From a phage: a stretch of 64,000 nucleotides of DNA. Each line of letters begins with the position of its first letter. The stretch's first letter is position 1. The notes beneath the pieces were generated by a model, which was given only the letters and a program-made list of their open reading frames with translations, was not told where the DNA came from and did no database searches. Location of the stretch: sequence record PX092659.1; one strand, 5' to 3'. Position numbers and translations under genes: made by a program. Positions 2,591 to 54,858 of the stretch are shown here, in pieces.

Positions 2591-3807
2591 TGGGTTTAAA
2601 AAGCTGGATTACTGAAAAGTTAAATCCGGGTCAACGTATTATAAGAGACATGGAACCAGTTAGTCATCGCACTAACCGTAAGCCTTTTACCACTGGACAA
2701 GCCTATAGCAAGATTGAGATTCTCAATCGAACTGCCAATATGGTTATAGATAGTGCGGCGGAGTGTTCTTATACTGTCGGAGATAAATATAATATTGTTA
2801 CGTACGCTAATGGCGTCAAAACAAAGACTCTAGACACTCTCTTAAATGTACGACCTAATCCATTCATGGATATAAGCACATTCCGTAGACTTGTAGTCAC
2901 TGACCTACTTTTTGAAGGTTGTGCGTACATCTATTGGGATGGCACATCGCTTTACCACGTCCCGGCTGCTCTTATGCAGGTCGAGGCAGATGCCAATAAG
3001 TTTATCAAAAAATTTATATTTAATAATCAGATAGACTATCGCGTAGATGAGATTATCTTTATAAAGGATAACAGTTACGTGTGTGGCACAAACTCTCAAA
3101 TTTCTGGACAATCTCGTGTTGCTACTGTTATTGATTCTCTTGAGAAGCGTTCTAAGATGCTTAACTTTAAAGAGAAATTCCTCGATAACGGAACCGTGAT
3201 TGGTCTTATTCTTGAGACGGATGAAATCCTGAACAAGAAATTGCGTGAGCGTAAACAAGAAGAATTACAACTCGATTATAATCCTAGTACGGGTCAGTCT
3301 TCTGTCCTGATTCTAGATGGTGGTATGAAAGCTAAACCGTACTCCCAAATATCCTCTTTTAAAGATCTAGACTTTAAGGAAGACATCGAAGGATTTAATA
3401 AATCTATCTGTCTAGCCTTTGGTGTTCCGCAAGTACTGCTTGATGGTGGTAATAACGCGAACATTCGACCAAATATCGAACTGTTCTATTACATGACTAT
3501 CATTCCTATGCTGAACAAACTGACTAGTTCTCTTACTTTCTTTTTTGGTTATAAGATCACTCCTAATACTAAGGAGGTAGCTGCATTAACACCAGATAAA
3601 GAAGCTGAGGCTAAACATTTAACCTCATTGGTTAATAATGGTATTATGACTGGTAACGAAGCTCGTTTAGAGCTGAACCTTGAACCTTTAGATGATGAGC
3701 AGATGGATAAGATTCGTATTCCTGCTAACGTTGCTGGTTCTGCAACAGGTGTATCTGGTCAAGAAGGTGGCAGACCTCAAGGTTCCACCGAGGGAGATAA
3801 AGAATGA
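2590..3807 (+). CDS. portal protein
   Basis: 405 aa, position between terminase and prohead protease, size matches T5 portal (pb7-like); translationally coupled to neighbours. Confidence 0.82.
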   Translation: MGLKSWITEKLNPGQRIIRDMEPVSHRTNRKPFTTGQAYSKIEILNRTANMVIDSAAECSYTVGDKYNIVTYANGVKTKTLDTLLNVRPNPFMDISTFRRLVVTDLLFEGCAYIYWDGTSLYHVPAALMQVEADANKFIKKFIFNNQIDYRVDEIIFIKDNSYVCGTNSQISGQSRVATVIDSLEKRSKMLNFKEKFLDNGTVIGLILETDEILNKKLRERKQEELQLDYNPSTGQSSVLILDGGMKAKPYSQISSFKDLDFKEDIEGFNKSICLAFGVPQVLLDGGNNANIRPNIELFYYMTIIPMLNKLTSSLTFFFGYKITPNTKEVAALTPDKEAEAKHLTSLVNNGIMTGNEARLELNLEPLDDEQMDKIRIPANVAGSATGVSGQEGGRPQGSTEGDKE

Positions 3808-4298
3808 TTGATTATAATGGTCTAAAGACCATTTTTGGTGAAAAACTACCAGAACCTCATATCTTCTTTGCTACGGTTGCTGCGCATAAACATGTTCCTA
3901 GCTATGCTTTTCTGCGTAGAGAACTAGGAATTTCATCTGCGCATACTAACCGTAAAGTATGGAAGAAATTTGTAGAGGCTTATGGTAAAGCAATTCCTCC
4001 GGCTCCACCGGCTCCACCATTAACTCTTTCTAAAGATTTAACTGCGAGCATGTCAGTTGAAGAGGGAGCAGCATTAACACTTTCTGTTACTGCAACTGGT
4101 GGTACTGGTCCATATACTTATGCATGGACTAAAGATGGTTCTCCTATTCCGGAAGCTTCAGGAGCTACCTATACTAAGCCTGCAGCAGCTACGGAGGATT
4201 CTGGAGCCTATAAAGTAACTGTAACAGATAGTAAGCAAGTAAGCAAGGACTCTACTACATGTGCTGTGACAGTTAATCCTACTGTTCCTGGAGGCTAA
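3804..4298 (+). CDS. head decoration protein with C-terminal Ig-like domain (pb10-like)
   Basis: 164 aa; PPAPPAPP linker followed by Ig-like fold signature (LTLSVTATGGTGPYTYAWTKDGSPIP...SGAYKVTVTD); size equals T5 pb10. Confidence 0.6.
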   Translation: MIDYNGLKTIFGEKLPEPHIFFATVAAHKHVPSYAFLRRELGISSAHTNRKVWKKFVEAYGKAIPPAPPAPPLTLSKDLTASMSVEEGAALTLSVTATGGTGPYTYAWTKDGSPIPEASGATYTKPAAATEDSGAYKVTVTDSKQVSKDSTTCAVTVNPTVPGG

Positions 4299-45467: not shown

Positions 45468-45498
45468 ATTTAAACTCCTCTCTCAAATTTATGAATCT

Positions 45499-45527
45499 AT
45501 TATACAGAAAATTTTTCCTGAAAGCAA
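45499..45527 (-). promoter_or_regulatory. strong T5 early promoter, PN25-like
   Basis: minus strand reads AAAAATTTATTTGCTTTCAGGAAAAATTTTCTGTATAATAGATTCATAAATTTGAGAGAGGAG; TTGCTT(45527-45522)-17 bp-TATAAT(45504-45499); near-identical to the T5 PN25 promoter as I recall it. Confidence 0.8.
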
Positions 45528-46283: not shown

Positions 46284-49044
46284 GTTCGGACAGTACTTCT
46301 TCTGCCATAGCCTTCTCTTCCTCTGTCATGAATTTGAAAGGAATTGGCATACACTCGATTTTACAATAGGTTCTGTACCAGTCTACGATATTCTCCGTGT
46401 TCATATCTTTACCAATACCCATCATACCAAGATACATTCTAGCATATTTTGGGTTAGCACTCTGACCTGTTTTAAGGAAGAAGTCCTTCTTCTTACCTTT
46501 CAGAGCCTCTATGAATGGTTTAATGGTCACATTTGAACACTTCTTAATATCTTCCCAGAACATCTCGTGCATCTTATGGAAGAATGCAGCTCGATCATTC
46601 GGTTTATCTTTGATATATTGTTCAACATGCTCAACTGTTACATCTTTAATAGACTCGAGATGATAATAGCGAACAAGAAGTAGCTTAGCTTCATATGCAT
46701 CCGCATGGCGCGGAGCACAATAATCAGGAGTTGAGTGCAGAATAGCTTTGATTCGCTCCTCTGTGTACTCTTTACCAGCACCTTCAATAGTTCCCCAGCT
46801 TTCACTGAAAATATCAATAGTTGCACCCTGATCAAGCAAGTAATAACGTAAAGTACTAGTATAGTTCCTAGATTCTAATTCCCTGCGACGTGCGTATAAT
46901 TGCTGTGCTAACTCCAGCCAACCTTCATCAATATTATATTGTTCAGAACCTGCGGAGAATCCACTCGTAGATTTATCAATAAAATAATAGATATTTTGAG
47001 CACCACGGTCGCGCCTGATTGCTTGGAAACGCATGTTTGGCGCTTGATTACTAGTTCTAGTAATAACGAATACGTTATCAAAATAGTTGAAGTCAACACC
47101 ACTCGTTACGGATGGACTACATAATAAGCAATCAATTTGTTGATCAATTAGCTCATTAGTTGTGTAATCCAGAATACGTCTAATATCTACATCAGACGTA
47201 GAGTTTGAGTGGATTTCCTTAACTAACGCACCCGTATTACGACGCAACGCCATGCCCTTCTCATTCAGTTCATCTGGCCCACAGTCAGATACTAGGATAG
47301 ATTTCTCACCCATCTCCAGGGAAGTCTGAAGTGCAACCCAAATACTAGACTCATCAGGGAACTCATAAGCATGAGCTTTTGATAGCATTTTACGGTGGTG
47401 ATTGTAAAATGCAACCGGTTTATCAAACTCAATCAAAGAACCATATGCTTCAATTGTTTCTGCACTAATATCCCCATCAGATAATATAATGATTTTTGCA
47501 GTTGCAAGAATATCCCGAAGAACCTGAATACATTCACGACGTTGTTTAACAACCGGGGCGAATAATAGGTCATTCATTACAGCGTCACATTCATCGATAA
47601 AGATTGCATCGATTTGACCAATAAAACTCTTGAACTTATGTAAAGAGTGAATAGTTGTGGACATACGGTCAATAGCGCCACGCTTAAAATTAAGCATATC
47701 TACAGACTTATCATATTGTCCTGCACTAAATTTCTTAGCATTTGAAGATACCAGTGCTCGAGTATTGGTAATTGCTAAGAAATTACCTTTAATAACTCCT
47801 GAATCTAACCAACGAACAACAGCCGTTGTTTTACCCGTGCCTAGGCTTGCTTTTACAAAAGTCATATAGCCTTCTGGTGGTACAGTATTTAATTTCAAGA
47901 AGTTGTCGGTCTCTAGTGAGTTAGTCTCTAGTTTTTTAAGTGGAATACCTTTTAAAACATCAGGTATATCACGTTTAGAATTATTCACAAAGGCTTTTAA
48001 CGCCTGCTTACGACCGTTATTAAAGTAATCTTGAATATTACGACTATTATCTTTAGTTGCAATATACTCAGATAAAGCTGGGCGGATCTCCTTCTCTAGC
48101 CAGCCAAAATCTACACCATCCTCTAGTGCTCGGTGATAGAGTTTAGGAATAATACGTAGATATACACCATCCTCAGCTTCTTCTAACTCGCTGATGGTTT
48201 CTTCTACTTTATCAGAGGCAGCTTTTTTACCCTTAATTTGGTCTAGTAAAGAGTAGAACTCTTCCTTAAACTCACCTCTAGTTGTTTCATAGTCAACTAG
48301 ATTATTAGGTAAATTTACTTTTGAGCCTTTAACAAATACCAGACGTGAAGCACCCTCCGCTTTAAACGGATCTACTATACCATCAGTGAATAAAGGATCT
48401 GCAAAGTAATGGAGCTGTACGGAAGAGTAATAAGCTAAGTCGGCAATATCAAAGCCATACTTTTGTCTACTACTTTCGTTGATAGATGTAAATAAGAATT
48501 TGATTTGACCCTGAGTTACTTTAACATTAGATTCTAGTATTAAGTGCATTCGGATACCTGGTTTTAGCCCAGCCGAAGACGATGCATGAGCGATAAACCC
48601 TGCATCAAGAGGAAACATATCCTCACTAATACTATTTAACATTCTAATAATATGTCGAGCCATGCCAACAAGATCAAACTTGTTACAACCACCTGTATCT
48701 ACAATACCATCCACGTCCATTGCAATTATATGACTTGGGTTAGATACATTAAAGTTGCCCTTCTTACGTCGCACATTATTTTTAGGTGCAAGACATCGAC
48801 CTCGTACCGCAACGATATGAGGGTCAGACGTTAAACGTCTCATAAGAGGAAGCATTTCTACTAGGGTTTGAGGATCAACTTCATCAATTACATCAAACTT
48901 GAAGGGCATTGAAGCTGGTTTACCTTCAGGATGCTTTGAGGAAAATCTTTTAGCAAAAAGATAGTCTTCTGCTTTAACTTCTCGCCAATTGCCTGTGGCT
49001 AAATCGCGATGAAATCCTGCATGACCTTGTAGGATTGAAAACAC
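46258..49044 (-). CDS. putative replication origin-binding protein / DNA helicase-like ATPase
   Basis: Walker A SLGTGKTTAVV and Walker B IFIDECDAV in central region; track ORF extends to TTG 49122 but GTG 49044 has SD AGGAG 7 nt upstream. Confidence 0.6.
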   Translation of the reverse strand: MFSILQGHAGFHRDLATGNWREVKAEDYLFAKRFSSKHPEGKPASMPFKFDVIDEVDPQTLVEMLPLMRRLTSDPHIVAVRGRCLAPKNNVRRKKGNFNVSNPSHIIAMDVDGIVDTGGCNKFDLVGMARHIIRMLNSISEDMFPLDAGFIAHASSSAGLKPGIRMHLILESNVKVTQGQIKFLFTSINESSRQKYGFDIADLAYYSSVQLHYFADPLFTDGIVDPFKAEGASRLVFVKGSKVNLPNNLVDYETTRGEFKEEFYSLLDQIKGKKAASDKVEETISELEEAEDGVYLRIIPKLYHRALEDGVDFGWLEKEIRPALSEYIATKDNSRNIQDYFNNGRKQALKAFVNNSKRDIPDVLKGIPLKKLETNSLETDNFLKLNTVPPEGYMTFVKASLGTGKTTAVVRWLDSGVIKGNFLAITNTRALVSSNAKKFSAGQYDKSVDMLNFKRGAIDRMSTTIHSLHKFKSFIGQIDAIFIDECDAVMNDLLFAPVVKQRRECIQVLRDILATAKIIILSDGDISAETIEAYGSLIEFDKPVAFYNHHRKMLSKAHAYEFPDESSIWVALQTSLEMGEKSILVSDCGPDELNEKGMALRRNTGALVKEIHSNSTSDVDIRRILDYTTNELIDQQIDCLLCSPSVTSGVDFNYFDNVFVITRTSNQAPNMRFQAIRRDRGAQNIYYFIDKSTSGFSAGSEQYNIDEGWLELAQQLYARRRELESRNYTSTLRYYLLDQGATIDIFSESWGTIEGAGKEYTEERIKAILHSTPDYCAPRHADAYEAKLLLVRYYHLESIKDVTVEHVEQYIKDKPNDRAAFFHKMHEMFWEDIKKCSNVTIKPFIEALKGKKKDFFLKTGQSANPKYARMYLGMMGIGKDMNTENIVDWYRTYCKIECMPIPFKFMTEEEKAMAEEVLSELGATNENA

Positions 49045-49643
49045 AACAATACTCCTGTGTTGGAAATGGAATAAGTTTTCTTTAGGACTATTCAGAAAGA
49101 ATAGAACAACTGTTACTGTCAATTTCTCAACAAATTAATTGCAAATACTGAAGTGGGGTGGCAACTTCCACTTTCACGCTGCGCTGCTGCCTCATTATAC
49201 CGCACAAATCCTTGAGGATGGCCGCTAAGCCAGATTTGCTCACCTAATGCTTCATATACTAGCTCATACTAGATGCAATATAACTTACAGAATCACGTCT
49301 CGGTAGTTTTTCACTCCTCCCATCTCACTTCACAACCACCTCATACTAGGTTGCTTCGAGGCCTTACCAGGGTTCCTATGGGACGCAGATCGCTAAGTAT
49401 TCTATTAACTATTTGCTTAAAAACTAACACGTAACAGTTAAAACAACCCTTAATGGGGCAGCCTAACTGTTCCGTATCGCGGATTGTAAACAAGAAAAAA
49501 CTTTTTCGTAAAGCTCTAGCAACGTACCTTATGCAGCTATTTACGGGTCATCGATTCCTCTCGCCGTAAATCTCTTGTCAGCTTCACTAAGAAAAATTAG
49601 TAAAAGATCAATTTTTACTAATGTCTCTCAATTCAATATAAAT
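49045..49643 (-). other. long promoter-proximal noncoding region (candidate structured leader, ncRNA or replication origin)
   Basis: No ORF of 60 aa or more on either strand; lies between promoter (-10 at 49644-49649) and origin-binding gene start; contains CTAGTATGAG-like decamer x3 and hairpins. Confidence 0.4.
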
Positions 49644-49672
49644 ATTATAGCAAGATTTTGAGCATCATGCAA
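49644..49672 (-). promoter_or_regulatory. T5-type early promoter
   Basis: minus strand TATAAT(49649-49644) followed by ATTTATATTGAATTGAGAGA start region; weaker -35 TTGCAT(49672-49667). Confidence 0.55.
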
Positions 49673-49704
49673 GTAGATTTTTAAAGAGAATGCTATCAGT
49701 GTCT

Positions 49705-49740
49705 TTGAGCACAGAGAAAACCGAGCCAAAATGACTCGGT
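49705..49740 (-). terminator. intrinsic terminator
   Basis: minus-strand ACCGAG-UCAUUUUGG-CUCGGU hairpin followed by UUUCUCUGUGCU; immediately precedes next promoter. Confidence 0.55.
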
Positions 49741-49748
49741 TATACGGA

Positions 49749-49943
49749 TTAATCATAAAAAAGACCACGAATAGTATTAGCAAATTTAAGTATAATAGCG
49801 CGGTTTGAGCTACTTAACTTTTTAATATCGAAAGTGGGATCAGTCAAATATCTCGCCATAAATTTTACTTGTTTAGCTGAAAGTTGACCCTTATTCCACT
49901 TTTTAATTTTACCATAACATACCCAATATTCTTTATTCATCAT
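49749..49943 (-). CDS. hypothetical small protein
   Basis: 64-aa basic ORF at end of early small-gene operon. Confidence 0.35.
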   Translation of the reverse strand: MMNKEYWVCYGKIKKWNKGQLSAKQVKFMARYLTDPTFDIKKLSSSNRAIILKFANTIRGLFYD

Positions 49944-50325
49944 TTAGTCCCGGAACATAGATCCCAACACGATTTAATTGTTCTTTAGCTTCTTTGAGAA
50001 TATCTGGAGTGTACTCCCAAATATCATCTTCCACCTGTAAAAGATGTGGCGAACAACCGTCATCAGGCACACGACATATGGCCAAACCACGTGGATGGAA
50101 CAAAGAGAAATTTAGGGCAACAATCAAGCCCATAGCAGACAATTCATTCCAATCCAATTCCCATTCCCTGGCATATCCAGACAGGAAAATGCCAATGCAT
50201 GGATCATCTATTTGCTGCTCCGGAAAAGTGAAGGAGGCTTGTCTTACCCCCAACCAACGTTGTAGCAGCTTCTCCGCACGCTTCACCAAACTAGGATCAA
50301 TCTGACGCCAGTATACTTGTTCCAT
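49933..50325 (-). CDS. hypothetical protein, paralog of 50335..50763
   Basis: 130 aa; shares PCIG...W.ELD...MGL(I/V).ALN..LF.P...W.Y(S/T)P...G..(I/V)PGL pattern with upstream neighbour. Confidence 0.45.
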   Translation of the reverse strand: MEQVYWRQIDPSLVKRAEKLLQRWLGVRQASFTFPEQQIDDPCIGIFLSGYAREWELDWNELSAMGLIVALNFSLFHPRGLAICRVPDDGCSPHLLQVEDDIWEYTPDILKEAKEQLNRVGIYVPGLNDE

Positions 50326-50334
50326 TATGCCTCC

Positions 50335-50763
50335 TTAGGCAGTTAAACCCGGAATTTGATAACCAAAACGGCGAAGTTTTTGGATACCATCATTTACTTC
50401 TTCCGGTGAGTAAGACCAACCATAACGTTCATTAACCTGAAAACCAGGAGATTCACTAGTTTTATAGTTAACAACGAGGCGATGCTTAGCAGGCATAAAC
50501 AGCTTATAGTTTAACGCAAAAACTAAGCCCATTTCATCTAACTCTTTCCAGCCGACAATTTCTTCAAGACCATCCTCTACCTGCACAATTAAACCAATAC
50601 AGGGAGCCTCATCAATATCATCTTTAAAAGCAAAGGAGATTTCGTTATTCTCACACCATATTTTCAAAGAGTTAATAGCCTCATTATACAGGCTAGCTGG
50701 GAGAGTACGCCAAAAGTTAACCAAAATTGGGTTAGCTTCTTTAGAGAGTACATTATTGAACAT
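50335..50763 (-). CDS. hypothetical protein, paralog of 49933..50325
   Basis: 142 aa; same conserved motif series as downstream neighbour. Confidence 0.45.
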   Translation of the reverse strand: MFNNVLSKEANPILVNFWRTLPASLYNEAINSLKIWCENNEISFAFKDDIDEAPCIGLIVQVEDGLEEIVGWKELDEMGLVFALNYKLFMPAKHRLVVNYKTSESPGFQVNERYGWSYSPEEVNDGIQKLRRFGYQIPGLTA

Positions 50764-50765
50764 AT

Positions 50766-51272
50766 TTACACCTTAAATTGTTGTAAGGATTTACACATTT
50801 CAAGATCTGGGCTAAATTCTAGCATATAGCTAACAGCTTTTAAATCTTGAAGATTTATCCCAGTCCTACCGTTGACTATAACTGTTGGATACTGATACAT
50901 CATAGCACCCGCATCATCAAGTACACACCAATGTTTGAGCTTATACTTTTCAACGAAACGAAGAACAGAATTACCCCTAGATAATCCACCTCCAGTAAAA
51001 TCCGTTGTACCAAGAAAACGATCGATAAGACCTAATCTGGTCATAATCTGAACGTTCTCCATCTCATTTCTAACAGAGAACCAAGATGATACTCCAACAA
51101 TCATTATCGGAGAAGGACGAATAAAGTCCTGAAAAGCCTTGAGAAGCGGTTTGAAAACCCAGTCACTTCCAAAGAAAATCTTTTCATCATCAGGTGCATG
51201 ATGGTGGGAGATGCTCGAATTGAGCACCCCATCAATGTCTAGAAAAATAATCGGAGTATTACTTATTTCCAC
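50766..51272 (-). CDS. HAD-superfamily phosphatase-like protein (possible nucleotidase)
   Basis: 168 aa; N-terminal motif I FLDIDGVL (DxDG), downstream VLDDAG-like motif. Confidence 0.5.
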   Translation of the reverse strand: MEISNTPIIFLDIDGVLNSSISHHHAPDDEKIFFGSDWVFKPLLKAFQDFIRPSPIMIVGVSSWFSVRNEMENVQIMTRLGLIDRFLGTTDFTGGGLSRGNSVLRFVEKYKLKHWCVLDDAGAMMYQYPTVIVNGRTGINLQDLKAVSYMLEFSPDLEMCKSLQQFKV

Positions 51273-51441
51273 TTTTGTCCCTTTCTAAGAACGTATCATA
51301 CTCAACCGTATCAACATATATGACACCATAGTCATCGGATTTATAGTCCATTTCCCACAGCTCACAGCGATAGCACCAACTACCGTCCGCCCATACAAAT
51401 ATATCATCAGGGTGTGCATACACAGATTTAATTATGGACAT
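51259..51441 (-). CDS. hypothetical small protein
   Basis: 60-aa ORF overlapping both neighbours by 14 nt; ATG start. Confidence 0.3.
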   Translation of the reverse strand: MSIIKSVYAHPDDIFVWADGSWCYRCELWEMDYKSDDYGVIYVDTVEYDTFLERDKSGNK

Positions 51442-52255
51442 ATTTGTTCCCCGGCATATAAGGCCTACCCTCTAGATGAGCTTCTACACGAGCAATAAAA
51501 TCAGGGTCACTGAAGGCATCTACAGCCCCTTTACCCCAGTAAGGGATACCGCGTTCTTCCAACTGGTACATCTCACTACGAGTCATGCCTTGATAGCCAG
51601 GTTCCGCTGCTAGGGCATTATCATAGTAGTTAACAACCATTAGCTTGGCAGCAGTAAGGTTAAGAATAGGAAATAATTCCCAGTAGAAGTTAATTACTTG
51701 GTTAGAGCAACCAACCACAATGATCATATCTTGACTGGTAATACCATCAAAAACATTGTACATTTCTGTATATGCTGGAGCATGCTCACCAAAGAAGATG
51801 ACATTAGGTTTAACCCATTTATAGTCATCTGGGTCAATAGAGTTATACCCAACATCAATAATTCGTTTATTACTACTATTGTAGCTATCAGCTACAACAA
51901 CCTCCTTTAAGTATCCATGAATGTGGAGAATATCATTATGGGGAACACCAGCACGCTCAATAAGGTCATCAACGTTAGTAGTCAAATTTACTACTTGACC
52001 TGGGTATTGTTTATACCACTCACCAATACGAAGATGCGCAAGGTTAGGTTCAACAGTTTTTAGCTCTTCACGACGCTTGTTGTAAAACATATGGGTTTTA
52101 TGATAAAAATTACCACGAAAGGCATGAATATTACATACTTCTTCTAGATCATAATCATCCCACAATGCTTTACCACTAGCAGTATCAGTACGAAAGGCTC
52201 GTACACCACTTTCAACGCTCAAACCCGCACCGCTAATAATAATTAATCTACGCAT
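51428..52255 (-). CDS. Sir2-family (sirtuin-like) NAD-binding protein lacking zinc ribbon
   Basis: 275 aa; sirtuin motifs ISGAGLSVESGVRAFR (GAGxS...G(I/V)xxFR), TTNVDDL (TQNxDxL), catalytic His in LHIHGYL, VIFFGE, IIVVGCS; no CxxC zinc-binding pairs. Confidence 0.65.
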   Translation of the reverse strand: MRRLIIISGAGLSVESGVRAFRTDTASGKALWDDYDLEEVCNIHAFRGNFYHKTHMFYNKRREELKTVEPNLAHLRIGEWYKQYPGQVVNLTTNVDDLIERAGVPHNDILHIHGYLKEVVVADSYNSSNKRIIDVGYNSIDPDDYKWVKPNVIFFGEHAPAYTEMYNVFDGITSQDMIIVVGCSNQVINFYWELFPILNLTAAKLMVVNYYDNALAAEPGYQGMTRSEMYQLEERGIPYWGKGAVDAFSDPDFIARVEAHLEGRPYMPGNKYVHN

Positions 52256-52469
52256 TTTTCACCTGTTCTCTGAAGTTTTGCCCAATACTGTCTAATAGCT
52301 CAGCTAATTCTTTATTGCCTTTCTCCATTAAGGTATTAGCAATAACTTCTAGCATAGTAGCGCAGGATTCAACACCATCCTTATAGCCAGTTTCCCAGTG
52401 CTGCATTAATGCGTTTTCCAAAGCGGCGTTTAAACCCTTATCTGGTAGTATCGGCTTCAAGAATGCCAT
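52248..52469 (-). CDS. hypothetical small protein
   Basis: 73 aa; ATG 52469 with strong SD GAGGAG; overlaps upstream ORF by 32 nt. Confidence 0.4.
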   Translation of the reverse strand: MAFLKPILPDKGLNAALENALMQHWETGYKDGVESCATMLEVIANTLMEKGNKELAELLDSIGQNFREQVKNA

Positions 52470-52641
52470 AAAGTTTCTCCTCTAATTCCATAACACGATT
52501 TTCATAAGAGGCACGCAACTTTTCAATTGCCAGTGCACGCACCGTAACCTCATTAGAATTAATAGCTAATTGGGCCAGATCTTCTGTTTCCATACGTCCG
52601 TTGTAAATTAAGCGATATTTAAGATGTTTTACGTTTTTCAT
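52438..52641 (-). CDS. hypothetical small protein
   Basis: 67-aa ORF with predicted helical C-terminus. Confidence 0.35.
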   Translation of the reverse strand: MKNVKHLKYRLIYNGRMETEDLAQLAINSNEVTVRALAIEKLRASYENRVMELEEKLYGILEADTTR

Positions 52642-52650
52642 TCTTGTTCC

Positions 52651-52932
52651 TTAGTTCTGTACTGTAAATTCATTCTTATCACAGTGAGCATAATAATACC
52701 CATACATACGATAAATCTTCACAGCCTTAGTAGACCCCTTCGATTCTTCGTAATCAATCCAGAGCCACTTGTCTTTACCTACATAATGTACCCGAAACTT
52801 CTTAACTTTCTTATCATTCCATGTTGCAACAACACGACGATAATCAAATCCGCCCAACCAATCCAGAGCTTTACGTTCTTCACTAGGCTCTCCAAGATGG
52901 GAGACATCTACTTTAGGAAGCAACTCGCTCAT
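52651..52932 (-). CDS. hypothetical protein
   Basis: 93 aa; first gene after promoter, SD GAGAGGAG. Confidence 0.45.
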   Translation of the reverse strand: MSELLPKVDVSHLGEPSEERKALDWLGGFDYRRVVATWNDKKVKKFRVHYVGKDKWLWIDYEESKGSTKAVKIYRMYGYYYAHCDKNEFTVQN

Positions 52933-52960
52933 AACTTTCTCCTCTCAAATTTATAAATCT

Positions 52961-52989
52961 ATTATATATAAATTTTTGGCTGAAAGCAA
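52961..52989 (-). promoter_or_regulatory. T5-type early promoter
   Basis: minus strand TTGCTT(52989-52984)-17 bp-TATAAT(52966-52961) followed by ATAGATTTATAAATTTGAGAGGAG. Confidence 0.7.
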
Positions 52990-53024
52990 ATAAAATAAAA
53001 GCCAGGTCGACTAGCAACCCGGCT
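52988..53024 (-). terminator. intrinsic terminator after nrdD
   Basis: minus-strand AGCCGGG...CCUGGCU hairpin (one G-U pair) followed by UUUAUUUUAUUU. Confidence 0.6.
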
Positions 53025-53031
53025 GATTAGC

Positions 53032-54858
53032 TTACTTAAGATTTAAGTGTTTTACTCTACCAAGAACTTCTTTTTGTTTCCCAGAATTGAAAGGCCTACT
53101 GCCAGGAGATCCCAGGTACCCGCAAACCCTACGTGTAACCTCTATTTCTTCAGACCCACAACTCGGACATACAAACCCACGTTCAGAGGCAACAGATTCA
53201 CCCATATACCCACAGTTGAAGCACTCATCAATTGGTATATTAACACCAATATAATGGCTACATTCTAGCCCCTTATCCACCACATACTCAAGAGCTTTGT
53301 GGAACTTTTTCATTTGAGGTAGTTCCACAAATGATATATTACCACCATTAGCTATTTTGGTAAAATGAGCCTCGTACTCAAATTTAGTATCTGGAGCTAC
53401 CTTCTCTCTTACGTCCAAATGGTGACTATTAGTAAGATAGCCTTTGTCTGTTAACCAAGAATACTCTGGGAATCTACGTTCTAGTAATTTATTAAAACGA
53501 TTACATAGAGACTCACTAGGAGTAGCATACAAGCTAAACCCAAGATTAGTCTCATTAGCTTTAACTTCGCAACGATTTTTTAGGTGAGTGAGAACTTCCT
53601 CTGTAAATTCAATACAGTCCCTATGGGTCTGTGGTAAACTAAACATTATTTGGCACATCTCATAGACCCCAATATACCCAAGAGATACAGAGGATCTACC
53701 CTCAAAAATAGGCCATACATATTCTTCCCCTTCTAAACGTGCACCAAACCCACCGTGCATATAAAGAATAGGGGCTTGTTTAGCCTTAACTTTCTTCAGT
53801 CTGTTTAAGAAGAAGTCATGCGCTTCAAAAGCCTCATCCACATATTTGTCTAGAATACCCCAGAAATCTTCAAAAACTCCATCTGCCTCAGCAGCAACCA
53901 TAGGTAGATTGATAGACACAACACCTAAATTATTACGTCCTGCAATTTCTCCAGAGGGGATAGCAGATAAAAAACTACGACAACCCATAGGGGCTTTAAA
54001 ATCACCAGTAACAGCTACAACTCTCTCGTAACTTAAATAGTCTGGATACATACGAGTAGCAGAACACTCAAGTGCTAGCTGTTTTATATCATAGTTAGGA
54101 TCACCTGGGTTTTTATTTAACCCTTCTTTAACTGAGAATACTAGTTTAGGGAAGATAGGGGTTGACTCAGCAGCACCTAAACCTTTAATGCGATTTTGGA
54201 GGATGGCTTTCTGAATCATCCTTTCCTCCCACTCCTGCCCTAATCCAAAGCCAAGCGTAACAAAAGGGGTCTGCCCATTAGAGTTAAATAATGAATTAGT
54301 TTCATACTCTAGAGCTTGGAATGCATCATAACACTCTTTTTCAGTAAGCTCAGTAGCATACACAGCAGCTTTTCTTTCATCCTTGAGCCAACGTAGCCCA
54401 CGACCCAGATGTTTATTGTAAGACTTTCTGACATACGGGGCTAGAACCTCGTCGATACGATCAATAGAGGTGCCACCATACTGAGCACCAGATACTTGGG
54501 CAATAATCTGAGCAGTGATTGCACATGCAGTAGTTATGGATTTAGGAGTTTCAATATTTGCATTACCAATTTTAGTACCATTCTTCAGCATGCCACCAAG
54601 GTCTACTAAGCAACAGTTAGTGTACCCCTGCGCCCTGTAATCCATATCATGAATGTGTATCTTACCTAGATTATGTGCGTCTAATAGATGTTTGGGTAAT
54701 TCCTGCGATACTAAATACTTGTTGATTTCTCCGGCTAATAAGTCTCTTTGAGTATGGAACATCTCACTAGGCTTATTAGCATTATTATGTTGTAAGTCCT
54801 TGTCAGCAGTTAGAGTGAGCAGGCCTTTGCAATTCTCAATTAATTCATTCTCTGTCAT
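53032..54858 (-). CDS. nrdD: anaerobic ribonucleoside-triphosphate reductase
   Basis: 608 aa; C-terminal glycyl-radical motif RVCGYLGSP and zinc site CFNCGY...CPSCGS; catalytic Cys region. Confidence 0.9.
   Translation of the reverse strand: MTENELIENCKGLLTLTADKDLQHNNANKPSEMFHTQRDLLAGEINKYLVSQELPKHLLDAHNLGKIHIHDMDYRAQGYTNCCLVDLGGMLKNGTKIGNANIETPKSITTACAITAQIIAQVSGAQYGGTSIDRIDEVLAPYVRKSYNKHLGRGLRWLKDERKAAVYATELTEKECYDAFQALEYETNSLFNSNGQTPFVTLGFGLGQEWEERMIQKAILQNRIKGLGAAESTPIFPKLVFSVKEGLNKNPGDPNYDIKQLALECSATRMYPDYLSYERVVAVTGDFKAPMGCRSFLSAIPSGEIAGRNNLGVVSINLPMVAAEADGVFEDFWGILDKYVDEAFEAHDFFLNRLKKVKAKQAPILYMHGGFGARLEGEEYVWPIFEGRSSVSLGYIGVYEMCQIMFSLPQTHRDCIEFTEEVLTHLKNRCEVKANETNLGFSLYATPSESLCNRFNKLLERRFPEYSWLTDKGYLTNSHHLDVREKVAPDTKFEYEAHFTKIANGGNISFVELPQMKKFHKALEYVVDKGLECSHYIGVNIPIDECFNCGYMGESVASERGFVCPSCGSEEIEVTRRVCGYLGSPGSRPFNSGKQKEVLGRVKHLNLK

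What the first reader, a model, noticed from the sequence alone, without database searches (positions are those of the whole stretch)
49749..52932. Early accessory cluster of nine small genes including tandem paralogs and a HAD-like phosphatase
A single promoter (52961-52989) and a terminator (49705-49740) bracket nine tightly packed or overlapping ORFs, most without recognisable function. This is the least conserved-looking part of the window and a plausible site for host-takeover or anti-defence functions.
Basis: inference. Interest (0 to 1): 0.5.

Follow-up and report, generated by a model that had tools for sequence, protein, structure and literature searches.

The report
T5 early operon with phage sirtuin
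This is the well-conserved early operon of T5-like phages (T5 genes T5.100-T5.107) that encodes a phage sirtuin, a small phosphatase, two duplicated proteins of unknown function and a few variable small genes. It is already annotated and already has a published but untested functional prediction, so it is largely ordinary.

Summary
Nine tightly packed minus-strand ORFs (49749-52932) lie between a T5-type promoter (52989-52961) and an intrinsic terminator (49741-49719). Both signals are conserved across T5-like phages.

The "HAD-like phosphatase" is a HAD_SAK_2 domain protein with intact catalytic motifs. The tandem paralogs are DUF7415 proteins, 31% identical to each other.

The block is the homologue of T5.100-T5.107.
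- **Core:** g2, Sir2, g5, HAD and the two DUF7415 genes are present in essentially all E. coli/Salmonella T5-like phages.
- **Variable genes:** g1, g3 and g9 occur in about 57%, 45% and 13% of them.
- **Dispensable:** two independent natural deletions remove Sir2 and HAD, so the module is not essential.

The Sir2-HAD pairing survives a change of gene order in distant T5-like phages. Orthologous Sir2 genes sit beside RNA ligase 1 in Vequintavirinae. This agrees with the 2022 prediction by Iyer et al. of an NAD-using RNA-end repair module, but no ligase or kinase is present and nothing has been tested experimentally.

Verdict: already known, function unproven, interest low to moderate. In passing, I found a covariation-supported structured ~450-nt RNA leader just downstream, in front of repA. 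It matches no Rfam family.

The parts
53000..53024 (-). Intrinsic terminator of the upstream nrdD gene, which forms the upstream boundary of the unit
   Evidence: 10-bp stem followed by a T run. Eps7 has compensatory changes, and metagenomic L013 has a different hairpin at the same place.
52961..52989 (-). T5-type sigma-70 promoter, TTGCTT-17-TATAAT, followed by the conserved box ATAGATTTATAAATTTGAGAG
   Evidence: Read directly. This motif class occurs 10 times in the window against 0.12 expected. The downstream box is shared with the promoter at 45480-45527. It is conserved in 7 phages, and T5 annotates a promoter here.
52651..52932 (-). g1, 93 aa, unknown function. A variable gene; T5 has a different first gene, T5.100.
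   Evidence: phrog_7953, E = 9e-66. Found in 250 phage records and 17 of 32 IMG/VR loci. Absent from T5.
52438..52641 (-). g2, 67 aa, unknown function, homologue of T5.101. Near-universal in Tequintavirus and Epseptimavirus.
   Evidence: phrog_5236. Found in 420 records, all at >= 80% identity, and in 28 of 32 loci.
52248..52469 (-). g3, 73 aa, unknown function. A variable gene with several alleles.
   Evidence: phrog_5827. A strong SD (AGAGGAG) precedes the ATG at 52469. Found in 200 records. Alleles of 30-34% identity, or absence, in many loci.
51428..52255 (-). g4, 275-aa Sir2-family (sirtuin) protein, homologue of T5.102. It has a class-III-like catalytic core and no Zn-binding cysteines.
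   Evidence: Pfam SIR2, E = 7e-25. Closest PDB sequence is E. coli CobB, E = 2e-17. AF2 model pLDDT 89; best Foldseek match is CobB 1s5p, TMt 0.85. GAGxS, FR, Y58-x-x-R61, TTNVD and H113-G114 are invariant in 21 homologues.
51259..51441 (-). g5, 60-aa protein with the motif W-x-D/N-G-S/F-W-C-Y-R, homologue of T5.104. It directly follows Sir2 in most T5-like phages.
   Evidence: phrog_5116. Found in 489 records, including Klebsiella and Erwinia phages, where the match typically abuts or overlaps the Sir2 gene. It lies after Sir2 in T5, S131, Eps7, IME260 and L048.
50766..51272 (-). g6, 168-aa HAD-superfamily phosphatase of the HAD_SAK_2 family, homologue of T5.105, with a GTG start
   Evidence: Pfam PF18143, E = 3.9e-19. 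D12, D14, S62/S63, R99 and D119-D120 are invariant down to 30% identity. Found in 469 records.
50335..50763 (-). g7, 142-aa protein with two DUF7415 repeats, homologue of T5.106
   Evidence: Pfam PF24187, E = 2.6e-35, two matched stretches. Found in 524 records with two copies each.
49933..50325 (-). g8, 130-aa protein with two DUF7415 repeats, homologue of T5.107 and tandem paralog of g7
49749..49943 (-). g9, 64 aa, unknown function. A rare accessory gene that is absent from T5.
   Evidence: phrog_29527. Found in only 57 records and 4 of 32 loci. In T5 the terminator follows T5.107 directly.
49719..49741 (-). Intrinsic terminator that closes the operon
   Evidence: 10-bp stem, 3-nt loop and a T tract. 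Conserved in 5 phages and replaced by a different hairpin at the same place in IME260. Annotated as a terminator in T5.

Best explanation
**Shown.** The region is a single early-type operon of a T5-like phage (Tequintavirus), homologous to T5.100-T5.107. A T5-class sigma-70 promoter drives it and an intrinsic terminator closes it. Its conserved core has four elements:
- a phage-specific clade of class-III-like sirtuin with all NAD-cleaving residues but no zinc module;
- a 60-aa protein (g5) that usually follows the sirtuin;
- a small HAD_SAK_2 phosphatase with intact catalytic aspartates;
- two paralogous DUF7415 proteins.

Around this core sit interchangeable small genes (g1, g3, g9). The module is dispensable for growth.

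**Inferred mechanism**, following Iyer et al. 2022. The core is an NAD+-consuming system that processes nucleic-acid ends and ADP-ribose phosphates, and the phage uses it early against host RNA- or NAD-targeting immunity. The sirtuin would transfer ADP-ribose from NAD+ onto a phosphorylated acceptor, for example a 2'-phosphate on a cleaved RNA or tRNA end. This would parallel Tpt1/KptA, which is unrelated in sequence. The HAD phosphatase would remove terminal 2'/3'-phosphates or dephosphorylate the ADP-ribose-phosphate by-product. Resealing would have to rely on a host ligase, because the phage encodes none. The roles of g5 and DUF7415 are unknown. They may be partner or specificity subunits, or nucleotide-binding proteins.
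For: - **Operon anatomy:**
- **Domain assignments and intact catalytic motifs:**
- **Sir2-HAD linkage survives rearrangement.** The order is Sir2-g5-HAD in Tequintavirus and Epseptimavirus, but HAD-x-Sir2 in three distant T5-like phages (L048, Erwinia phage KEY L049, L050).
- **RNA-repair neighbours of the same Sir2 clade.** Sir2 proteins 57-62% identical to g4 lie in Vequintavirinae directly next to RNA ligase 1, phosphoesterases, a P-loop ATPase and a MazG-like pyrophosphatase.
- **Aeromonas phage Aeh1.** A single-domain DUF7415 gene overlaps the stop codon of rnlA (RNA ligase 1), and a HAD_SAK_2 homologue lies three genes upstream.
- **HAD_SAK_2** is, by Pfam's definition, the HAD domain of 'Swiss Army Knife' RNA-repair proteins.
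- **Published prediction.** Iyer, Burroughs, Anantharaman and Aravind 2022 (PMC9503650, section 3.7.3) predict exactly this sirtuin + SAK-like HAD neighbourhood as NAD-using RNA repair. Their type example, phage SP15, is a Tequintavirus.
- **Link to ADP-ribose chemistry.** The HAD_SAK_2 homologue of Acinetobacter phage ABPH49 overlaps the start of a Prs-like plus Nampt-like gene pair, which I read as NARP1-type. In some phages a Macro-domain ADPR-1''P phosphatase is found in NARP1 operons (bioRxiv 10.64898/2026.01.28.702374).
- **Dispensability:**
Against: - There is no experimental evidence for any step.
- No RNA ligase, polynucleotide kinase, cREC, 2H or MazG homologue was found by tblastn in the window or in about 105 of the 110 kb of the close relative S131, and none is annotated there. 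The classical heal-and-seal pathway is therefore incomplete.
- By sequence and predicted fold the sirtuin most resembles protein deacylases (CobB, SIRT5). It keeps their Y-x-x-R and FGE motifs, which fits a protein substrate at least as well.
- DUF7415 is fused elsewhere to a dATP/dGTP pyrophosphohydrolase and to a thymidylate kinase. The cluster also sits among nrd, thy and dhfr genes. Both point to nucleotide-pool functions rather than RNA repair.
- HAD is missing from Klebsiella T5-like phages, and DUF7415 is missing from the KEY-like phages. The four core parts are therefore not an obligate unit.
- Neighbouring early phage genes need not work together.
Confidence: 0.4

Rival explanations
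1. The sirtuin is an ordinary NAD-dependent protein deacylase, or a protein mono-ADP-ribosyltransferase. It remodels host or phage proteins early in infection as a host-takeover function. The phosphatase and DUF7415 genes are merely co-transcribed neighbours.
For: - The closest sequence and fold matches are CobB, Sir2Af1 and SIRT5.
- The class III Y-x-x-R motif, the FGE peptide-binding motif and the catalytic His are invariant.
- GenBank and RefSeq annotate the gene as an NAD-dependent deacetylase.
Against: - The NCBIfam CobB models are hit far below their cutoffs (99.7 bits against 243), so this is not a CobB orthologue.
- The zinc module is absent.
- The recurring linkage of this clade with phosphoesterases and RNA ligase in three unrelated gene arrangements (PMC9503650) would then be unexplained.
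Confidence: 0.25
2. The core is part of the phage's nucleotide and NAD-pool management. HAD acts as a nucleotidase or an ADP-ribose-phosphate phosphatase on small molecules. DUF7415 acts as a nucleotide-binding or regulatory domain. The sirtuin acts as an NAD-consuming or NAD-exchanging enzyme. No RNA substrate is involved.
For: - The cluster lies inside the nucleotide-metabolism block: phoH, nrdA/B, nrdD, dhfr and thyA.
- DUF7415 is fused to a dATP/dGTP pyrophosphohydrolase and to a thymidylate kinase.
- The HAD homologue of ABPH49 directly precedes a Prs-like plus Nampt-like gene pair, and Aeh1's HAD lies between td and nrdA.1.
- There is a precedent for a phosphatase that feeds NARP1.
Against: - T5-like genomes show no Adps- or Namat-like genes, so NAD could not be rebuilt.
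- A free NADase would harm the phage.
- Pfam places the HAD in an RNA-repair-associated family.
- The nearest Sir2 relatives sit next to RNA ligase.
Confidence: 0.2
3. There is no joint function. The operon is a collection slot for unrelated accessory genes between two essential modules (nrdD and repA), kept together only by a shared promoter and terminator.
For: - Gene content at both ends turns over: g1 versus T5.100, the g3 alleles, and g9.
- Sir2 alleles of 48-97% identity sit between flanks that are about 90% identical, which indicates cassette exchange.
- HAD or DUF7415 can each be absent.
Against: - The Sir2-HAD pairing persists after gene-order inversion in distant phages.
- The Sir2-g5 and DUF7415-DUF7415 pairings are retained across genera.
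Confidence: 0.15

Closest known systems
Bacteriophage T5 genes T5.100-T5.107 (NC_005859, 55708-58976)
   Same: Same position between nrdD and the replication-origin-binding gene, with the same promoter and terminator. Identities are Sir2 92%, T5.104/g5 95%, HAD 98%, and the DUF7415 pair 94-95%.
   Different: T5 has a different first gene (T5.100, 126 aa) in place of g1. It lacks g3 and g9 and has an extra small ORF, T5.103.
Type-3 phage sirtuin neighbourhood of Iyer et al. 2022 (sirtuin plus 'Swiss-army-knife-like' HAD phosphatase, typified by Escherichia phage SP15)
   Same: Same gene pair in the same phage genus. This is the published functional prediction for this locus.
   Different: The paper does not mention the DUF7415 pair, g5 or the variable small genes. 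Its model is purely computational.
Vequintavirinae (rV5-like) cluster of RNA ligase 1, small ORF, ATPase and Sir2
   Same: The sirtuin belongs to the same clade (57-62% identity) and sits in an early gene block.
   Different: That cluster has an RNA ligase, calcineurin-like phosphoesterases, a kinase-like ATPase and a MazG-like pyrophosphatase. It has no HAD_SAK_2, no DUF7415 and no g5.
E. coli CobB and human SIRT5 (class III sirtuins)
   Same: Rossmann core, GAGxS, TxNxD, catalytic His, FGE and the Y-x-x-R motif. Best structural match TMt 0.85.
   Different: Only about 24% identity, and well below the NCBIfam CobB cutoffs. The zinc-binding cysteines are absent. The protein has a longer C-terminal part and is phage-restricted: all relatives at >= 50% identity whose contig is long enough to judge lie on phage-sized contigs.
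Tpt1/KptA NAD-dependent RNA 2'-phosphotransferase with Poa1-type ADPR-1''P phosphatase, and T4 Pnkp-Rnl1 tRNA repair
   Same: The proposed logic is the same: NAD+ is used to remove an RNA 2'-phosphate, a phosphatase cleans up, and the system counters anticodon nucleases. This rests on established knowledge and PMC9503650.
   Different: There is no sequence or fold relationship to Tpt1, Macro domains or Pnkp. No ligase or kinase is present in the phage. The activity is untested.

Membership tests
Sirtuin / Pfam SIR2 (PF02146) | Profile match above the gathering score | tested here: met
   88.4 bits against a cutoff of 24, covering profile positions 1-178 of 180
Sirtuin / Pfam SIR2 (PF02146) | NAD-binding and catalytic residues: GAGxS, FR, TxNxD and the catalytic His of the HG motif | tested here: met
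   G9-A10-G11-x-S13, F21-R22, T93-N94-V95-D96 and H113-G114 are invariant in 21 homologues and align with CobB
Sirtuin / Pfam SIR2 (PF02146) | Zinc-binding small domain with two CxxC pairs | tested here: not met
   There is no cysteine between residues 115 and 157, where CobB has its cysteines. The fold is otherwise sirtuin-like. This is a variant feature and does not exclude the protein from the superfamily.
CobB-type / class III protein deacylase | Y-x-x-R acyl-carboxylate motif and equivalog-level similarity | tested here: inconclusive
   Y58-N-K-R61 is conserved, but the NCBIfam CobB models score 45-100 bits against cutoffs of 221-395
Defence-type Sir2 NADases (ThsA, DSR, SIR2-HerA) | Match to PADLOC defence Sir2 models | tested here: not met
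   No PADLOC hit at E <= 0.01. No defence Sir2 appears among the top 50 Foldseek hits.
HAD superfamily, HAD_SAK_2 (PF18143) | Profile match above the gathering score, and motifs I (DxDxV/T), II (S/T), III (K/R) and IV (DD) | tested here: met
   69.8 bits against a cutoff of 27.5. D12-x-D14-G-V, S62/S63, R99 and D119-D120 are invariant in homologues down to 30% identity.
HAD superfamily, HAD_SAK_2 (PF18143) | Phosphatase activity on RNA terminal phosphates | not testable with these tools
   Needs an enzyme assay. No solved relative was found by sequence.
DUF7415 (PF24187) | Profile match above the gathering score | tested here: met
   g7 scores 120.8 bits and g8 107.6 bits against a cutoff of 27, each with two repeats. 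The core motif is W-N-x-L-S-x-x-G-L...N...H-P-x-G...S-P...D-G-x-W-x-Y.
Complete phage RNA heal-and-seal system (T4 Pnkp + Rnl type) | An RNA ligase and a 5'-kinase encoded by the phage | tested here: not met
   tblastn with three phage Rnl1 proteins, a partial PseT (Pnkp) and the other Vequintavirinae neighbours found nothing in the window or in S131. None is annotated in S131.
Tpt1/KptA 2'-phosphotransferase | Homology to the KptA/Tpt1 fold | tested here: not met
   g4 is a sirtuin, not a member of the ART superfamily. Only a functional analogy has been proposed (PMC9503650).
T5-type sigma-70 early promoter | TTGCT(T/A) -35 element, 17-nt spacer, TATAAT -10 element, and recurrence ahead of operons | tested here: met
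Intrinsic terminator | GC-rich hairpin followed by a U tract, with the hairpin maintained by compensatory change | tested here: met
   IME260 has a different hairpin at the same position.

The most novel reading that the evidence does not exclude
The Sir2-g5-HAD_SAK_2-DUF7415 core is a ligase-independent anti-defence device driven by NAD+. A zinc-less sirtuin ADP-ribosylates phosphorylated RNA ends or another phosphorylated target. A cap-less HAD phosphatase, possibly given its specificity in trans by DUF7415 proteins, clears the RNA phosphate or the ADP-ribose phosphates produced by host immunity, such as RES-type NAD phosphorolysis. This would be a new enzymatic activity for sirtuins and a new counter-defence route in T5-like phages.
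Probability: 0.25. Interest if true: 0.65.

Novelty: already known. Interest (0 to 1): 0.3.

Why it matters
T5-like phages are model phages and are used in therapy, and they are frequent targets of tRNA-cleaving and NAD-depleting defences. A sirtuin family restricted to phages and present in about a thousand sequenced phage genomes has no demonstrated activity. If the predicted chemistry is right, the known repertoire of sirtuin reactions would grow, and a conserved but dispensable early operon would be explained. As a genome-scan finding, however, the cluster is an already annotated, conserved block with a published prediction. Its main value is as a defined target for experiments. The natural deletion phage DT57C and its intact relative DT571/2 offer a ready-made comparison.

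Tried and rejected
- **RNA genes in the cluster.** ARAGORN found no tRNA anywhere in the window. Rfam at E <= 1 over 48900-53200 gave only a sub-threshold MicF match (33.7 bits against 79) on the terminator hairpin, which I take as chance.
- **Internal promoters.** Generic sigma-70 matches are at chance level (17 found against 16.3 expected), and no T5-class promoter lies inside the cluster.
- **Foreign origin.** GC content is 36-43%, the same as the flanks.
- **Defence-system relatives.** PADLOC gave no hits.
- **NCBIfam.** It gave nothing for the seven proteins without a functional assignment.
- **DUF7415 as the 'cREC' domain of Iyer et al.** Rejected. cREC is described as a Rossmannoid receiver-like fold, whereas the model is two beta-alpha-beta-beta units. 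The small ORFs next to Sir2 in Vequintavirinae have no similarity to anything in T5-like genomes.
- **g5 as a zinc ribbon supplied in trans to the zinc-less sirtuin.** Rejected, because the second cysteine of its single CxxC is not conserved.
- **Phage-encoded RNA ligase, kinase, MazG or phosphoesterase in T5-like genomes.** None found.
- **Literature on DUF7415.** None.
- **Literature on T5 transcriptomics of these genes.** Nothing relevant.
- **First AF2 submission for Sir2.** I repeated it with database homologues.

Full report
**Identity of the window.** The 3.5-kb region matches 450 phage records by megablast. The best are Salmonella phages S131 and S130 (94.7% over 98% of the query), followed by many other Tequintavirus and Epseptimavirus genomes. 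The window therefore comes from a T5-like phage of the family Demerecviridae.

**Observation.** Five junctions overlap by 8-32 nt and three are gaps of 2-9 nt. Most starts have a Shine-Dalgarno-like motif, and the one before g9 is the weakest.
- The stated promoter span, 52961-52989, is TTGCTT-17-TATAAT. The generic scanner missed it only because TTGCTT scores 3 of 6 against TTGACA.
- The motif TTGCT-N18-TATAAT occurs 10 times in the window against 0.12 expected. Its strand follows gene orientation, and no copy lies inside the cluster.
- The 25-nt box after the -10 element is shared with a second promoter at 45480-45527. From memory, that promoter resembles the classical T5 PN25 promoter; I did not test this.
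- The promoter, the nrdD terminator in front of it (53024-53000) and the closing terminator (49741-49719) are all conserved in T5, S131, Eps7 and DT57C. More distant relatives (Klebsiella phage IME260, metagenomic L013) have different hairpins at the same positions.
- The T5 reference record annotates a promoter, T5.100-T5.107 and a terminator at the homologous place.

**What the genes are.**
Its nearest solved relatives by sequence and by predicted fold are E. coli CobB, Sir2Af1 and SIRT5. GAGxS, FR, Y-x-x-R, TTNVD, the catalytic HG and FGE are invariant across the clade, but the zinc-binding cysteines are missing. It falls far below the NCBIfam CobB cutoffs and hits no defence-type Sir2 model. 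All relatives at 50% identity or more whose contig is long enough to judge lie on phage-sized contigs.
- **g6 (168 aa)** is a HAD_SAK_2 phosphatase with all four HAD motifs intact.
- An exhaustive profile search found 163 DUF7415 relatives. Most are standalone proteins of 70-160 aa. A few are fused to a dATP/dGTP pyrophosphohydrolase or to a thymidylate kinase.
- **g1, g2, g3, g5 and g9** match only PHROGs of unknown function.

**Conservation.** As a yardstick, the neighbouring replication-origin-binding protein is found at 80% identity or more in 441 phage records, which correspond to Tequintavirus plus Epseptimavirus. Record counts are not de-replicated.

| Gene | Phage records with a match |
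|---|---|
| HAD (g6) | 441 at >= 60% identity |
| DUF7415 (g7) | 524, always two copies, including Klebsiella T5-like phages |
| g2 | 420 |
| g5 | 489, the match typically abutting or overlapping the Sir2 gene |
| g1 | 250 |
| g3 | 200 |
| g9 | 57 |

In 32 IMG/VR T5-like loci the pattern is the same:

| Gene | Loci of 32 that carry it |
|---|---|
| DUF7415 pair | 30 |
| Sir2 | 29 |
| HAD | 28 |
| g2 | 28 |
| g5 | 25 |
| g1 | 17 |
| g9 | 4 |

The Sir2 gene is mosaic. Alleles of about 95%, 60%, 52% and 48% identity sit between flanks that are about 90% identical. Two independent deletions, in DT57C and in L037, remove Sir2 and part of HAD, so the module is dispensable.

**Evidence on function from other phages.**
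- In three distant T5-like phages the same slot holds HAD_SAK_2, a small ORF and then SIR2. That is the reverse order, and DUF7415 is absent.
- In Klebsiella phages and in metagenomic L013 the slot holds Sir2 plus DUF7415 without HAD.
- In Vequintavirinae, sirtuins 57-62% identical to g4 lie beside RNA ligase 1, phosphoesterases, a P-loop ATPase and a MazG-like enzyme.
- In the T4-like Aeromonas phage Aeh1, a single-domain DUF7415 gene overlaps the stop codon of rnlA, and a HAD_SAK_2 gene lies three genes upstream.
- In Acinetobacter phage ABPH49, the HAD_SAK_2 homologue overlaps the start of a Prs-like plus Nampt-like gene pair, which I read as NARP1-type. Some phages have a Macro-domain ADPR-1''P phosphatase in their NARP1 operons.
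- Iyer et al. 2022 (PMC9503650) describe this sirtuin clade. They explicitly list the sirtuin plus SAK-like HAD neighbourhood of phage SP15, a Tequintavirus, as a predicted NAD-using RNA-repair system in which the sirtuin acts like KptA.

**Mechanism.** I commit, at a confidence of about 0.4, to the reading that the core is an NAD+-dependent module for processing RNA ends and ADP-ribose phosphates, used against host immunity.
- Shown: the operon structure, the domain identities, the intact catalytic residues, the conserved linkage and the dispensability.
- Inferred: the substrates and the biological role.
- Main objections: T5-like phages encode no RNA ligase or polynucleotide kinase. The sirtuin looks like a protein deacylase. 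The fusions of DUF7415 point to dNTP metabolism.
- Rivals: a protein deacylase or ADP-ribosyltransferase used for host takeover (0.25), small-molecule nucleotide and NAD-pool management (0.2), and no joint function (0.15).

**Novelty.** The block is T5.100-T5.107. It is annotated in hundreds of genomes, and its key gene pair has a published prediction, so it is already known. Three details appear not to have been described:
- g5 sits next to the sirtuin almost every time;
- the DUF7415 duplication is old and conserved;
- the Sir2-HAD pairing survives inversion of gene order.

None of these changes the category.

**Side finding, outside the given coordinates.** The ~600 nt between the cluster terminator and the repA start codon begin with a conserved promoter: TTGCAT-17-TATAAT at 49672-49644. 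The repA start is most likely the GTG at 49044, which is preceded by AGGAG. The remainder looks like a structured RNA.
- On a 12-sequence alignment covering three sequence types, the RNAalifold consensus has 108 pairs and 95.9% of cells are paired.
- 35 pairs show compensatory changes on both sides, against 5-11 when the partners are slid by 1-3 columns and 20.4 +/- 1.9 in shuffles (0 of 500 shuffles reach 35).
- A fourth lineage, Erwinia phage KEY, is detected by nhmmer (E = 1e-23) and adds 17 more compensatory pairs.
- The last helix pairs the Shine-Dalgarno and start-codon region.
- No Rfam family matches. The element is present in 443 phage records.

Caveats: the structure was derived from the same alignment that was used to test it, only 3-4 lineages are independent, and the single-sequence folding z-score is only -1.29.

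Noticed in passing
window 49045-49672 (minus strand), just downstream of the cluster terminator: A conserved promoter (TTGCAT-17-TATAAT, 49672-49644) is followed by a ~450-600-nt leader of the repA (origin-binding protein) gene. Invariant blocks alternate with divergent ones. The RNAalifold consensus has 108 pairs, of which 35 show compensatory changes, against 5-11 in slid controls. A homologue in Erwinia phage KEY adds 17 more. The 3' helix sequesters the SD and start codon. There is no Rfam match. This is a candidate new cis-regulatory or structured RNA of T5-like phages.
   Followed up: partly
window ~49500-49597 (minus strand): A ~97-nt insertion in the repA leader is shared with DT57C and a few other phages and is absent from T5, S131 and Eps7. 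It is flanked by a TTTTTCTT repeat and contains its own hairpin, TTTACGG...CCGTAAA.
   Followed up: no
window 49042-49122: The mechanical ORF for the origin-binding protein starts at a TTG at 49122. The conserved AGGAG-N7-GTG and the T5 annotation place the real start at the GTG at 49044.
   Followed up: partly
window 50766-51272; L001, L002 and L005 annotations: RefSeq labels the HAD phosphatase (T5.105 and its homologues) 'Sir2 (NAD-dependent deacetylase)'. The probable cause is phrog_18062, a 92-aa profile that carries the Sir2 label but matches the C-terminal half of HAD (E = 3.6e-56). It may have been built from truncated or fused ORFs such as DT57C's 'defective sir2'. Some records label the DUF7415 genes 'tail tube protein' or 'exonuclease'.
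   Followed up: partly
window 51428-52255 compared with L026, L039, L040, L047, L042 and L009: The sirtuin gene is mosaic. Phages whose flanking genes are about 90% identical carry Sir2 alleles only 48-52% identical to this one, while Vequintavirinae Sir2 is 57-62% identical. This suggests cassette exchange between phage families.
   Followed up: partly
window 45480-45527 (minus strand), and nine other sites listed: A family of 10 TTGCT-N18-TATAAT promoters lies in the window. The one at 45499-45527 has the sequence TTGCTTTCAGGAAAAATTTTCTGTATAATAGATTCATAAATTTGAGAG, which from memory is nearly the classical T5 PN25 promoter used in expression vectors.
   Followed up: partly
L005 (Eps7) 3374-4188: The Sir2 gene of the Eps7 reference genome is split into two annotated ORFs by a frameshift. 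This is either a pseudogene or a sequencing error.
   Followed up: no
L048 6065-7528 and L050 5790-7420: Distant T5-like metagenomic phages have 1.5-1.6 kb without called genes between the Sir2 region and repA. That is much longer than the leader seen here, and nhmmer did not match it to the leader profile.
   Followed up: no
L049 4652-5008, L050 3881-4210, L013 6977-7258: A further small protein family (motif GKYxLGVN..EA..AA.GD...G.GYPSV.G.F) recurs next to Sir2 or HAD in distant T5-like phages. It is absent from this window.
   Followed up: no
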